A stretch of 5,305 bases of DNA from a virus. A program made the position numbers and the translations under genes. Positions 1,699 to 2,048 of this stretch are shown piece by piece (positions within the stretch are counted from its first letter, which is position 1; every line of letters starts with the position of its first letter). The DNA lies in UHGV virus genome UHGV-0794274; one strand, 5' to 3'. The notes beneath the pieces are model-generated. The model made no database searches. It was not told the DNA's origin and saw nothing but the letters and a program-made list of their open reading frames with translations.

Positions 1699-1752
1699 TG
1701 ATACTCCTAGATGGTGTCATCTAGCACATATTCATCAAGTCATGCATATGTG

Positions 1753-1778
1753 CCGCAAAAATTTTACAATTTTTGCGG
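1753..1778. repeat. Perfect inverted repeat (hairpin) CCGCAAAAAT-TTTACA-ATTTTTGCGG.
   Basis: Arms at 1753-1762 and 1769-1778 are exact reverse complements. It overlaps the predicted minus-strand promoter spacer and -10 element. Confidence 0.65.
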
Positions 1779-1789
1779 TAATTTGTCAA
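1761..1789 (-). promoter_or_regulatory. Sigma70-type promoter candidate for the 158aa-VP2-J transcription unit.
   Basis: Minus strand reads TTGACA (plus 1789..1784), then a 17-nt spacer, then TAAAAT (plus 1766..1761). The -35 is consensus and the -10 is 5/6. The predicted start near 1753 gives a 5' UTR of about 55 nt to ATG 1698. Confidence 0.45.
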
Positions 1790-1813
1790 TATAAGGGGGC
1801 AAGCCCCCTTATA
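1790..1813. repeat. Perfect inverted repeat (hairpin) TATAAGGGGGC-AA-GCCCCCTTATA.
   Basis: Arms at 1790-1800 and 1803-1813 are exact reverse complements, giving a 10-bp stem with a 4-nt loop when folded. Confidence 0.65.
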
Positions 1814-1820
1814 ACCCCCT

Positions 1821-1861
1821 GCGCGCTCACGCCACAGCGTTCTTCGCGCGTGGTGAGCGCG
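1821..1861. repeat. GC-rich imperfect inverted repeat (hairpin).
   Basis: CGCGCTCAC(1822-1830) pairs with GTGAGCGCG(1853-1861). The stem extends CAC/GTG after a 2-nt bulge. The loop contains CGCGCG. Confidence 0.6.
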
Positions 1862-1866
1862 TAGGA

Positions 1867-1904
1867 GTGGGGTTGCCAATGAAGGCAACCCCACACTTTT
1901 TTTT
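1867..1904 (+). terminator. Intrinsic-terminator-like hairpin followed by a T8 tract on the plus strand.
   Basis: Perfect 11-bp stem GTGGGGTTGCC(1867-1877)/GGCAACCCCAC(1884-1894) with loop AATGAA, then AC, then TTTTTTTT (1897-1904). No convincing plus-strand gene lies upstream, so it may stop antisense transcription or act as an ssDNA structural element. Confidence 0.5.
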
Positions 1905-1958
1905 CGGTAGTAGTGTTTTCCAAAATGGAAAGCCGCGCACTTCGTGCAATTTTTGAGC

Positions 1959-1986
1959 AAAAAAAACCCGTCCGCGAGGGGACGGG
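1959..1986 (-). terminator. Rho-independent terminator for the minus-strand (Rep-MCP-161aa-peptide) transcript.
   Basis: Perfect stem CCCGTCC(1967-1973)/GGACGGG(1980-1986) with a 6-nt loop. On the minus strand it is followed immediately by 8 U (plus-strand A-run 1959-1966). Confidence 0.6.
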
Positions 1987-2048
1987 CTAGCGTTTTTCCG
2001 GCGAAAAGCCGCGCGCTCAAACAAAAAGGAGAGTCAAAGACAAAAATA

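What the first reader, a model, noticed from the sequence alone, without database searches (positions are those of the whole stretch)
1699..2048. Hairpin-dense non-coding region: candidate complementary-strand origin plus regulatory hub
About 350 nt lack any credible ORF. Within that stretch, roughly 1750-1990 contains at least five perfect or near-perfect inverted repeats (1753-1778, 1790-1813, 1821-1861, 1867-1894, 1967-1986). There are also minor ones at 1917-1931 and 1937-1947. Several are very GC-rich in a genome that looks roughly 40% GC by eye. In ssDNA phages (G4 oric, phiX n' site, M13 minus origin), clustered stable hairpins in the packaged strand recruit primase, PriA or RNAP to start complementary-strand synthesis. 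This is the obvious candidate here. The same region also carries the two terminators and the promoter.
Basis: partly seen in the sequence, partly recalled or inferred. Interest (0 to 1): 0.55.

Follow-up and report, generated by a model that had tools for sequence, protein, structure and literature searches.

The report
Microvirus replication and transcription control region
This 350-base gene-free stretch of a small single-stranded-DNA phage is its most conserved, hairpin-packed control region, and besides a terminator and a promoter it holds what looks like the start site for rolling-circle replication, a site I found described in no paper for this large group of phages.

Summary
The region folds 9.6 SD better than shuffles and is the most structured and most conserved part of this complete 5.3-kb microvirus genome. 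In 8 relatives, 99.5% of stem positions stay paired and 7 pairs show compensatory changes.

- One hairpin plus T8 (1959-1986) is an intrinsic terminator for the capsid operon.
- A near-consensus sigma-70 promoter (1761-1789) sits inside an AT-rich palindrome.
Its loop carries ACTTGAT, the core of the phiX174 viral-strand nick site CAACTTG^ATA, and a TGACACC box lies 17 nt beyond the predicted nick, the same spacing as in phiX174. This module recurs once per genome in very distant microviruses, including Chlamydia phage Chp2. The stems covary and the loop is fixed. It is most likely the Rep nick site (the plus origin).
- The remaining GC-rich hairpins (1790-1947) lie between terminator and promoter. 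They are still reasonable complementary-strand-origin candidates, but nothing here proves it.

In passing: the origin module is inverted relative to the genes only in genomes whose coding strand is A-rich rather than T-rich, which hints that some microviruses package the antisense strand.

The parts
2049..2144 (-). Upstream flanking gene: a 31-aa hydrophobic ORF (MMKMNKERIGLWIAALTGAINAIWELVKGLI), the last gene of the capsid operon in this genome.
   Evidence: The peptide is conserved in all relatives.
1990..2016 (-). Conserved GCGCGCGGCTTTT motif, copy 1 (2004-2016), with a small hairpin GCGGCTTTT..AAAAACGC (1990-2012).
   Evidence: (direct repeat D1). A GCGGCT motif recurs in the intergenic regions of all relatives seen (two copies about 70-76 nt apart in most, one in L013), on the opposite strand in L011/L209/L013.
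1959..1986 (-). Intrinsic terminator: stem CCCGTCC/GGACGGG (1967-1986) followed by T8 (1959-1966).
   Evidence: The stem is invariant and the loop variable in 8 relatives, and the T tract is kept as T8-T10.
1928..1947 (-). GAA-loop mini-hairpin GCACGAAGTGC (1937-1947) followed by GCGCGGCTTT motif copy 2 (1928-1940).
   Evidence: A:T to C:G compensatory change in L007/L009. CGAAG..CGCGG occurs once per genome here and once in the phiX174 F-G intergenic region.
1917..1931 (-). Small AT-rich hairpin TTTCCATTTTGGAAA.
   Evidence: helix 4, two pairs with double changes.
1867..1904 (+). Terminator-like hairpin (1867-1894) plus T8 (1897-1904), read on the plus strand. It faces against the genes.
   Evidence: Relatives carry one of two unrelated stem sequences at this position, each with its own compensatory variant (L019 G>A with C>T; L015/L020 against L007 G>T with C>A), and all keep the A7-8 tract in packaged-strand sense.
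1818..1865 (-). Long GC-rich imperfect hairpin with no T tract. Candidate single-strand signal.
   Evidence: 16 pairs, 100% paired in 8 genomes. It has one invariant G.T pair, and the one single-sided change gives T.G on this strand.
1790..1813 (-). Perfect palindrome or hairpin TATAAGGGGGC-TT-GCCCCCTTATA abutting the -35 element.
   Evidence: Two single-sided changes both give G.T on this strand.
1761..1789 (-). Sigma-70-type promoter: TTGACA (1784-1789), 17-nt spacer, TAAAAT (1761-1766).
   Evidence: 11 of 12 matches. The hexamers and the 17-nt spacing are kept in relatives, with TATAAT in L008/L009.
1753..1778 (-). AT-rich GC-clamped palindrome CCGCAAAAATT-GTAA-AATTTTTGCGG spanning the promoter spacer and -10, directly 5' of the origin stem-loop.
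   Evidence: C:G to A:T in 4 of 8 genomes. Analogous A/T hairpins lie next to the origin module in L221, L220 and L012. It resembles a phiX174 F-G hairpin.
1724..1753 (-). Proposed viral-strand (plus) origin stem-loop: stem GCACATAT/ATATGTGC, loop GCATGACTTGATGA. ACTTGAT is at 1740..1734. The predicted Rep nick is between 1736 and 1735 on the minus strand.
1707..1724 (-). Hairpin CTAGATG-ACAC-CATCTAG carrying the conserved TGACACC box (1719..1713). GAC starts 17 nt after the predicted nick. Proposed Rep-binding part of the origin.
1696..1707 (-). Shine-Dalgarno GGAG (1704-1707) and the ATG (1696-1698) of the downstream 158-aa basic protein gene (1222-1698).

Best explanation
The window is a complete circular microvirus genome with all genes on the minus strand. 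Positions 1699-2048 are its single large intergenic control region.

Read in gene sense, which I infer to be the packaged strand, the region contains in order:
1. An intrinsic terminator ending the capsid operon (1959-1986).
2. A spacer of about 170 nt, probably untranscribed, filled with conserved hairpins and two GCGCGGCTTT motifs (1790-1947, plus 1990-2016 upstream of the terminator).
3. A near-consensus sigma-70 promoter embedded in an AT-rich palindrome (1753-1789), which drives the basic-protein, pilot, and Rep genes.
4. The viral-strand origin of rolling-circle replication (1707-1753). This is a stem-loop that presents ACTTG^AT in its loop to the phage's HUH Rep protein, followed by a TGACACC box 17 nt beyond the predicted nick.

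Proposed mechanism:
- Rep nicks the supercoiled replicative form at ACTTG^AT. The neighbouring AT-rich palindrome and the hairpin help to expose this site.
- The displaced, packaged strand then carries the spacer hairpins.
- After infection, these hairpins most likely stay free of SSB and recruit the host priming machinery for complementary-strand synthesis. An RNA-polymerase-made primer ending at the antisense-facing terminator 1867-1904, or a PriA-type primosome, are the two options.

What is shown and what is inferred:
- Shown: the anatomy, the conservation, the covariation and the homology of the nick-site motif.
- Inferred: nicking, priming, termination and promoter activity.

My sub-probabilities: terminator 0.85, promoter 0.8, plus origin 0.8, complementary-strand origin among the spacer hairpins about 0.4.
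For: Genome identity:
- Phage_F capsid and Rep domains are present, with a pilot protein and Rep in PHROGs.
- Relatives are circular contigs of 5.3-5.6 kb with the same gene order.

Structure: z = -9.6, the extreme of the genome.

Conservation:
- The intergenic core is 94-96.5% identical to L004/L006, where gene third positions are 67-89% identical.
- It is 82-84% identical to L007/L009, where gene third positions are 49-70% identical.

Hairpins:
- 76 pairs are 99.5% paired in 8 genomes.
- 7 pairs show double changes.
- The covariation score is 0.100 against 0.035 for shuffles (0/500) and at most 0.022 for slid controls.
- All three single-sided stem changes give G.T on the gene-sense strand.

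Terminator and promoter.

Plus origin:
- The phiX174 record annotates the origin at 4306 within CAACTTG^ATATTAATAACACTATAGACCAC.
- The window has ACTTGAT, then GAC 17 nt after the predicted nick.
- ACTTGAT occurs once in the genome. The composite pattern is expected 0.01 times by chance.
- A covariance model built from 9 close relatives finds one module per genome, at E below 0.05, in microviruses whose capsids are only 31-45% identical. It finds none among 59 non-microvirus loci that carry the same linear motif.
- In the origin stem, 7 of 8 pairs show double changes while CTTGAT stays fixed.
- Chp2 has CTAGCGTATAACAG-TCTACTTGATC-TGTTATACGCTAG-GTGATAGC in an intergenic region.
- A 53-nt module query hits 197 GenBank records, essentially all microviruses, mostly in unannotated DNA.
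- The neighbouring genes differ between genomes. This argues against a role specific to one gene's 5' UTR.
- Rep has HFH and AAYVSQYVLKK, against phiX gpA GFYVAKYVNKK.
- Bullavirinae and Gokushovirinae Reps are reported as monophyletic (PMC6668415).
- The module is inverted relative to the genes only in genomes whose coding strand is A-rich. This fits a strand-specific DNA function.
Against: - There is no experiment of any kind.
- In phiX174 the origin lies inside gene A and is not in a hairpin loop.
- The module was not found in phiMH2K, SpV4 or L011/L209.
- Two genomes with an A-rich coding strand (L263, L268) carry the module in gene sense, so base skew and module orientation are not perfectly linked.
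- The module also forms the 5' end of the predicted mRNA, so a role in mRNA stability cannot be excluded here.
- For the complementary-strand origin: the complementary strand folds as well as the packaged strand (-60 against -56 kcal/mol).
- There is no significant alignment to the G4 complementary-strand origin.
- Similarities to the phiX174 F-G region are low-complexity or post hoc.
- The perfect palindromes at 1790-1813 and 1753-1778 that flank the promoter look just as much like operators.
- The alignment behind one search was fitted to the model structure.
Confidence: 0.65

Rival explanations
1. One reading: the hairpin cluster as a whole is mainly the complementary-strand (minus) origin, as in G4 oric, the phiX174 n' site or the M13 minus origin. 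The viral-strand origin lies elsewhere, for example inside the Rep gene as in phiX174.
For: - The hairpins are stable, conserved, covarying and non-coding.
- Single-sided stem changes give G.T on the gene-sense strand.
- The AT-rich hairpin at 1753-1778 resembles a hairpin in the phiX174 F-G intergenic region.
- CGAAG..CGCGG is unique to that region in both genomes.
- The GCGGCT pair keeps its spacing of about 75 nt and flips strand together with the rest of the region in L011/L209.
Against: - ACTTGAT, the phiX174 nick core, occurs only once in the genome and it is in this region.
- The module has the properties expected of a Rep site.
- One hairpin is a textbook terminator and another overlaps the promoter.
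- There is no significant similarity to the G4 origin.
- Both strands fold equally well.
Confidence: 0.15
2. The hairpins are purely transcriptional and post-transcriptional. They are a pair of face-to-face terminators insulating two operons, extra read-through terminators, and 5'-terminal stem-loops (1707-1753) that stabilise the early mRNA and tune translation of the basic-protein gene. They have no replication role.
For: - Terminator-like sites lie on both strands and the promoter is strong.
- The predicted transcript would start at the base of the 1724-1753 stem-loop.
- The hairpin at 1707-1724 ends at the Shine-Dalgarno sequence.
- The RNA fold is as significant as the DNA fold.
Against: - The module lies next to different genes in different genomes, and on the non-coding strand in L013/L208, MG945306 and L257. 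There it could not give the same RNA.
- The loop sequence is invariant over capsid identities down to about 31% while the stems change.
- The hairpins at 1818-1865 and 1790-1813 have no T tract.
- The loop matches the phiX174 nick site with the same spacing to GAC.
Confidence: 0.12
3. The perfect palindromes at 1790-1813 and 1753-1778 are double-stranded operator sites for a dimeric repressor, of phage or host origin, that controls the early promoter. They are not hairpins.
For: - The arms are perfect 11-bp repeats that flank and overlap the -35, spacer and -10.
- Symmetric double changes keep the palindrome, as would happen with a co-evolving protein.
Against: - No recognisable DNA-binding regulator is encoded.
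- Single-sided changes in 1790-1813 are exactly those that keep G.T pairing on one strand.
- Analogous A/T hairpins with different sequences sit beside the origin module in distant genomes that lack this promoter.
Confidence: 0.08

Closest known systems
phiX174 / G4 viral-strand origin (the 30-bp gene A protein recognition sequence CAACTTG^ATATTAATAACACTATAGACCAC)
   Same: - It shares the ACTTGAT core and a GAC-containing box 17 nt after the nick.
- G4 also has CAACTTGATATTAATAAC.
- The cognate protein is an HUH Rep with a Y-V-x-x-Y-V-x-K-K motif.
- It occurs once per genome, on the T-rich strand.
   Different: - Here it is intergenic rather than inside the Rep gene.
- The nick core sits in the loop of a covarying 8-14-bp stem.
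- The spacer between the core and the box is the 3' arm of the stem rather than an AT-rich spacer.
- The box is TGACACC rather than AGACCAC.
Stem-loop origins of CRESS-DNA viruses (nonanucleotide in a hairpin loop) and of rolling-circle plasmids
   Same: The nick sequence is displayed in a hairpin loop beside the promoter region of an intergenic control region, with a variable stem and a fixed loop.
   Different: - The loop sequence is unrelated.
- The Rep has no helicase domain (PMC6668415).
- No iterons were identified with confidence.
Complementary-strand origins of ssDNA replicons: phiX174 n'/PriA assembly-site hairpin, G4 oric (primase), M13 minus origin and ssoA (RNA polymerase)
   Same: - There is a cluster of stable hairpins on the packaged strand in non-coding DNA.
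- A GC-clamped A5T2 hairpin and a GAA-loop mini-hairpin plus GCGCGG resemble pieces of the phiX174 F-G intergenic region.
- phiX174 PAS is a PriA-bound hairpin (PMC5778457, PMC8246471).
   Different: - The order of the pieces differs from phiX174.
- There is no significant alignment to the annotated G4 origin, and the shared string GCGGCTTT(T)CGCC is on the opposite strand in G4.
- The ssoA CS-6 sequence TAGCGT is present only as its complement on the packaged strand, and not in a loop.
- Priming activity is untested.
Intrinsic (rho-independent) terminators and sigma-70 promoters of phiX174-type transcription units
   Same: There is a GC-rich stem plus a T tract after the last gene of an operon, and TTGACA-17-TAAAAT before the next.
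   Different: A second terminator faces against all the genes, which a one-strand genome does not obviously need.

Membership tests
phiX174-type viral-strand origin (Microviridae Rep nick site) | Nick-site core CAACTTG^ATA on the packaged strand | tested here: met
   7 of 10 positions are identical (ACTTGAT) at 1740..1734 on the minus strand. This is the only copy in the genome. Distant relatives have AACTTGAT or ACTTGATAT.
phiX174-type viral-strand origin (Microviridae Rep nick site) | A second recognition or binding element at a fixed distance 3' of the nick | tested here: met
   GAC begins 17 nt after the predicted nick, as in phiX174. The distance is 17-18 nt in L066, L029, L012 and L013. 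The box is TGACACC rather than AGACCAC.
phiX174-type viral-strand origin (Microviridae Rep nick site) | A cognate HUH endonuclease with paired catalytic tyrosines encoded by the same genome | tested here: met
   PF23343 Rep domain, phrog_942, and HFH plus AAYVSQYVLKK against phiX GFYVAKYVNKK.
phiX174-type viral-strand origin (Microviridae Rep nick site) | Rep cleaves at this site and replication starts there | not testable with these tools
   This needs a nicking assay or mapping of replication intermediates.
Complementary-strand origin (ssi / sso / PAS) | Stable hairpins in non-coding DNA of the packaged strand, conserved in structure | tested here: met
   z = -9.6, 99.5% of cells paired with 7 compensatory pairs, and z from -5.6 to -10.2 in all relatives.
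Complementary-strand origin (ssi / sso / PAS) | Strand specificity: pairing is favoured on the packaged strand only | tested here: inconclusive
   There are 4 G.T positions and no A.C on the gene-sense strand, with 3 of 3 single-sided changes of that type (p about 0.125). However, the complement folds slightly better with DNA parameters.
Complementary-strand origin (ssi / sso / PAS) | Sequence or structure match to a characterised origin (G4 oric, phiX174 n' hairpin, ssoA RSB/CS-6) | tested here: inconclusive
   G4: no significant alignment. phiX174 F-G region: a low-complexity hairpin match (0-1 of 500 shuffles) and a post-hoc motif. CS-6 is not present in the right strand or in a loop (read from the sequence).
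Complementary-strand origin (ssi / sso / PAS) | Supports priming and ssDNA-to-dsDNA conversion | not testable with these tools
   This needs an M13 ori-minus or sso-less plasmid assay, or in vitro priming.
Intrinsic terminator | GC-rich stem-loop directly followed by a T tract, downstream of an operon | tested here: met
   1967-1986 plus T8, 62 nt after the stop of the last capsid-operon ORF. The stem and the T tract are conserved.
Sigma-70 promoter | -35 and -10 hexamers at 16-18 nt spacing, upstream of a gene | tested here: met
   TTGACA-17-TAAAAT, 11 of 12 matches, conserved in relatives. The consensus scan as a whole is not enriched over shuffles (14 sites against 11.3), so this rests on match quality, position and conservation.
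XerCD dif-like integration site | 28-bp dif-like sequence | tested here: not met
   The best match to E. coli or B. subtilis dif has at least 10 of 28 mismatches, and it lies outside the region.
Any Rfam RNA family | Covariance-model match | tested here: not met
   No match up to E = 1 in the whole window.

The most novel reading that the evidence does not exclude
The intergenic region is a self-contained replication cassette. The plus-origin stem-loop and the single-strand signals sit on one strand, and the cassette's orientation, not that of the genes, decides which strand is nicked, displaced and packaged.

In most microviruses the cassette is co-oriented with the genes. In at least three lineages (L013/L208, GenBank MG945306, IMG/VR L257) it is inverted. 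These genomes also show the mirror-image base skew, A-rich instead of T-rich at four-fold sites of the coding strand. Some microviruses would therefore package the antisense strand, against the textbook description of the family as positive-sense.
Probability: 0.35. Interest if true: 0.8.

Novelty: new variant of a known kind. Interest (0 to 1): 0.6.

Why it matters
Gokushovirus-like microviruses are among the most abundant ssDNA phages in guts and the environment. Almost none are cultured, and I found no open-access paper that locates their replication origin (nine searches of the held library).

A short motif that can be modelled computationally (a stem, an ACTTGAT loop and a TGACACC box) would mark the origin in hundreds of deposited genomes, where it is currently unannotated. 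The practical consequences are:
- a natural zero coordinate for these circular genomes;
- a direct biochemical test using Rep and a 50-nt oligonucleotide;
- the elements needed to build phagemids or replicons for uncultured-phage work;
- a link between the phiX174 origin and the hairpin-loop origins of other rolling-circle replicons.

The orientation of the motif also gives a testable predictor of which strand is packaged. The remaining conserved hairpins define a small, well-bounded candidate for the unknown complementary-strand origin of this group.

Tried and rejected
- Rfam scan of the whole window at E up to 1: nothing.
- Megablast against GenBank phages: nothing. The single-protein IMG/VR scan also found nothing, and the strict module pattern was absent from IMG/VR.
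- A loose pattern scan of IMG/VR and GTDB genomes gave mostly chance hits. Its non-microvirus hits were reused as negative controls for the covariance model.
- A coding explanation for the region is rejected. The ORFs are not conserved and the indels break frames.
- A dif/XerCD site is rejected.
- ssoA-type CS-6 (TAGCGT): only its complement is on the packaged strand, outside any loop. Rejected as a match.
- G4 oric: no significant alignment, and the shared GCGGCTTT(T)CGCC is on the other strand in G4.
- MFE strand asymmetry does not favour the packaged strand.
- Classical gokushoviruses: the module is marginal but clear by eye in Chp2. It was not found in phiMH2K or SpV4.
- A perfect link between base skew and module orientation is rejected after the IMG/VR sample gave two counterexamples.
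- Literature: nine searches found no description of this origin, or of antisense-packaging microviruses. The subscription literature on Chp2, SpV4 and phiMH2K is not in the library, and PMC348368 (the n' site paper) is not held. The location of the n' site within the phiX174 F-G region therefore rests on my memory.
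Full report
WHAT THE WINDOW IS

The 5305 bases are a complete circular microvirus genome, linearised inside the Rep gene. All credible genes are on the minus strand. In gene sense the order is:
- the major capsid protein (2623-4437; Pfam Phage_F, E = 5e-91);
- an acidic 161-aa protein (2128-2613);
- a 31-aa hydrophobic ORF (2049-2144);
- the 350-nt gap 1699-2048;
- a very basic 158-aa protein (1222-1698);
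- the DNA pilot protein (332-1222; PHROGs);
- a 53-aa ORF;
- Rep (PF23343 and phrog_942).

Nothing similar is in GenBank phages at the DNA level, and the best GenBank capsid is 45% identical. A search of 5.8 billion proteins gave a graded series of capsid relatives from 99% to about 50% identity. Their contigs all have terminal overlaps, so they are circular genomes of 5.3-5.6 kb with the same gene order. One of them, CYGL01001434.1, is the same virus and differs in the gap only by one extra T.

THE OBSERVATION

Two further hairpins were not listed, at 1724-1753 and 1707-1724.

The gap folds at -87.8 kcal/mol as DNA, against -48.2 +/- 4.1 for dinucleotide shuffles (z = -9.6). As RNA, z = -10. 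In 200-nt windows the four most stable stretches of the genome all lie here: -44 to -56 kcal/mol, against a genome mean of -21.4 and sd of 7.8. GC rises to 0.55.

ORFs crossing the gap are not conserved, and relatives differ by frame-breaking indels.

CONSERVATION

In relatives the corresponding gap is always present and always strongly structured, with z from -5.6 to -10.2. This holds even where the hairpin sequences are unrelated (L002, L008, L012, L011).

In the closest clade the gap is the best-conserved DNA in the genome:
- 94-96.5% identity to L004/L006, where third codon positions are 67-89% identical;
- 82-84% identity to L007/L009, where third codon positions are 49-70% identical.

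I tested a nine-helix structure on an alignment of eight distinct genomes:
- 99.5% of 607 cells are standard pairs.
- Seven pairs have changes on both sides (19 cells).
- The covariation score is 0.100, against 0.035 in shuffles (0/500) and at most 0.022 when partners are slid by 1-3 columns.

The hairpin at 1867-1894 could not be put in one register, because relatives carry one of two unrelated stems there. Each type has its own compensatory variant: GTGGGG..CCCCAC against GTGAGG..CCTCAC, and GCGGGGGC..GCCCCCGC against GCGGTGGC..GCCACCGC.

The three single-sided stem substitutions all give G.T on the gene-sense strand, and none gives A.C. This is weak evidence (p about 0.125) that the hairpins matter on that strand. 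The complementary strand folds equally well.

PARTS WITH AN ORDINARY EXPLANATION

- Terminator. CCCGTCC-loop-GGACGGG plus T8 (1959-1986) is a textbook intrinsic terminator 62 nt after the last capsid-operon ORF. The stem is invariant, the loop is free to vary, and the T tract is kept as T8-T10.
- Promoter. TTGACA-17-TAAAAT (1761-1789) matches the consensus at 11 of 12 positions and is kept in relatives. It sits about 60 nt upstream of the basic-protein gene.
- Second promoter. A promoter of equal quality precedes the capsid gene (4493..4464).
- Layout. The layout is therefore two transcription units that both end at 1959. The roughly 170 nt between the T tract and the promoter are probably untranscribed in the sense direction. 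This last point is an inference.

THE MAIN NEW POINT: A VIRAL-STRAND ORIGIN AT 1707-1753

In gene sense the sequence is GCACATAT-GCATGACTTGATGA-ATATGTGC-TAGA-TGACACC-ATCTAG.

The phiX174 record annotates the origin of viral-strand synthesis at 4306, within CCCCCAACTTG^ATATTAATAACACTATAGACCACC. The window shares ACTTGAT, and it has GAC exactly 17 nt after the predicted nick, as phiX174 does. ACTTGAT occurs only once in the whole genome, and the composite pattern is expected 0.01 times by chance.

The module is conserved far beyond this clade:
- A covariance model built from nine close relatives found one module per genome at E below 0.05 in microviruses whose capsids are 31-45% identical to the window's.
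- Their stems are entirely different, for example GCACAATACTA/TAGTATTGTGC, CACAGTTA/TAACTGTG, GCGGAGT/ACTCCGC and GCCTCTTC/GAAGAGGC.
- The model found nothing convincing in 59 non-microvirus loci that contain the same linear motif.
- On the model-fitted alignment of 27 hits, 7 of 8 stem pairs show double changes and 95.7% of cells are paired, while CTTGAT is fixed.
- Chlamydia phage Chp2, a cultured gokushovirus, has CTAGCGTATAACAG-TCTACTTGATC-TGTTATACGCTAG-GTGATAGC in its VP3-ORF8 gap.
- A 53-nt module query hits 197 GenBank records, essentially all microviruses, from faeces, river water, peat and methane-seep sediment, and mostly in unannotated DNA.

The flanking genes differ from genome to genome, so the module is not a feature of one gene's leader.

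The window's Rep has the HUH motif (HFH) and AAYVSQYVLKK. This aligns with the catalytic tyrosines of phiX174 gpA, GFYVAKYVNKK. The Reps of the two subfamilies are reported as monophyletic (PMC6668415).

I therefore read 1724-1753 plus the TGACACC box as the Rep nick and binding site, with the cut predicted between G1736 and A1735 on the minus strand (probability about 0.8). Unlike phiX174, the site is intergenic and displayed in a hairpin loop, as in other rolling-circle replicons.

A NATURAL EXPERIMENT

In L013/L208, GenBank MG945306 and IMG/VR L257, the module lies on the strand opposite to all the genes. In L011/L209 the paired GCGGCT motifs are likewise on the opposite strand.

ssDNA phages are known to be enriched in T at third codon positions, attributed to C-to-T change in single-stranded DNA (PMC3278643). 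At four-fold degenerate sites of the coding strand I find:
- phiX174: T 0.58.
- The window: T 0.50.
- Every genome with a gene-sense module apart from the two named below: T exceeds A (T 0.23-0.68).
- All genomes with an inverted module: the mirror image, A 0.47-0.62.

In an unselected sample of 65 IMG/VR microviruses, 57 are T-skewed and 8 are A-skewed, one of them only marginally. By clade, inverted modules occur in 3 A-skewed clades and in none of about 25 T-skewed clades, which is roughly a 0.0025 chance.

The link is not perfect. L263 and L268 are A-skewed but carry the module in gene sense, and phiMH2K is A-skewed with no module found.

This supports a strand-specific DNA function for the module, and it identifies the window's minus strand as the packaged strand. 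It also raises the possibility that some microviruses package the antisense strand. I put that at about 0.35.

THE REST OF THE CLUSTER (1790-1947 AND 1990-2016)

These hairpins are conserved, have no sense-direction T tracts, and lie in the probably untranscribed spacer. Several other features stand out:
- GCGCGGCTTT occurs twice, 76 nt apart. A GCGGCT motif, usually as a pair about 70-76 nt apart, is seen in every relative examined, even where the hairpins are replaced, and it flips strand with the origin in the inverted genomes.
- The hairpin at 1867-1894 is preceded by A8 in gene sense. Read on the plus strand, it is a canonical terminator facing against the genes. It would stop an RNA that starts near the origin and promoter hairpins and runs antisense.
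- The AT-rich hairpin at 1753-1778 resembles the phiX174 F-G hairpin GCGGTAAAAATTTTAATTTTTGCCGC (0-1 of 500 shuffles score as well, but the sequence is low-complexity).
- The string CGAAG(N0-2)CGCGG occurs once in each of the two genomes, both times in these intergenic regions. The pattern was defined post hoc.
- phiX174's primosome assembly site is a PriA-bound hairpin (PMC5778457, PMC8246471). That it lies in the F-G region is from my memory.
- Against this, the annotated G4 complementary-strand origin shows no significant similarity.

A complementary-strand origin here is thus plausible, at about 0.4. An RNA-polymerase-made primer terminated at 1897-1904, or a PriA-type site, are the concrete options. 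Operators for the two promoter-flanking palindromes, or pure insulation by terminators, remain open.

VERDICT

Compared with what is known, this is a new variant of the phiX174-type origin, with the same nick core and spacing but intergenic and presented in a covarying hairpin. It appears to be widespread and unannotated in gokushovirus-like microviruses. I found no description of it in the searchable literature, but older subscription papers on Chp2, SpV4 and phiMH2K could not be checked.

Noticed in passing
Relatives L013 (revcomp of 3170-3216), L208 (2746-2796, minus), L204 = MG945306 (1732-1782), L257 (1416-1472, minus): The origin-like module lies on the strand opposite to all the genes. 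These genomes are A-rich rather than T-rich at four-fold sites of the coding strand (A 0.47-0.62). This may mean they package the antisense strand. Counterexamples: L263 and L268 are A-rich with the module in gene sense.
   Followed up: partly
Window 2004-2016 and 1928-1940 (minus strand); L011, L209, L012, L002 and L008 intergenic regions: Most relatives seen keep a pair of GCGGCT(T) motifs about 70-76 nt apart on the presumed packaged strand (one copy in L013), even where the surrounding hairpins are unrelated. G4 has GCGGCTTTCGCC in its primer hairpin, but on the other strand.
   Followed up: partly
Between window 2049 and 2048 (relatives L002, L004, L006, L009, L011, L013, L019): Many relatives carry an extra conserved 62-69-aa ORF (85 aa in L011; MILWDLD...YEMTGDSSFTE...) between the small hydrophobic ORF and the intergenic region. 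It is absent from the window, L001, L007, L008, L015 and L020. Only about 30 nt of unrelated sequence sit in its place.
   Followed up: no
Window 167-328 (minus strand) and the overlapping frame: The 53-aa ORF MKGGRRYG... overlaps, in another frame, a 29-aa arginine-rich ORF (MAFGFYHTRSRRRRRALSLRKRLRRRRKR). The overlapping ORF is seen in most relatives (not in L004, L011 or L013) and looks like a J/VP8-type DNA-condensing protein. Both frames are kept.
   Followed up: no
L011 / L209 compared with the window: The L011 capsid is 70% identical to the window's, but the genome has a different Rep and pilot protein, an inverted intergenic region and the opposite base skew. This suggests recombination or a recent flip.
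   Followed up: no
L217 (Bdellovibrio phage phiMH2K, NC_002643): This cultured gokushovirus is A-rich (0.43) rather than T-rich (0.26) at four-fold sites of its coding strand. No origin-like module was detected on either strand.
   Followed up: partly
Window 4464-4493 (minus strand): A second near-consensus promoter (TTGCCA-18-TATAAT with an upstream TG) lies in the short gap between Rep and the capsid gene.
   Followed up: no
L002 and L008 intergenic regions: The 5' two-thirds of the intergenic region is replaced by a different set of hairpins, while the promoter palindrome and the origin module are kept almost unchanged. The region therefore evolves as exchangeable hairpin cassettes.
   Followed up: partly
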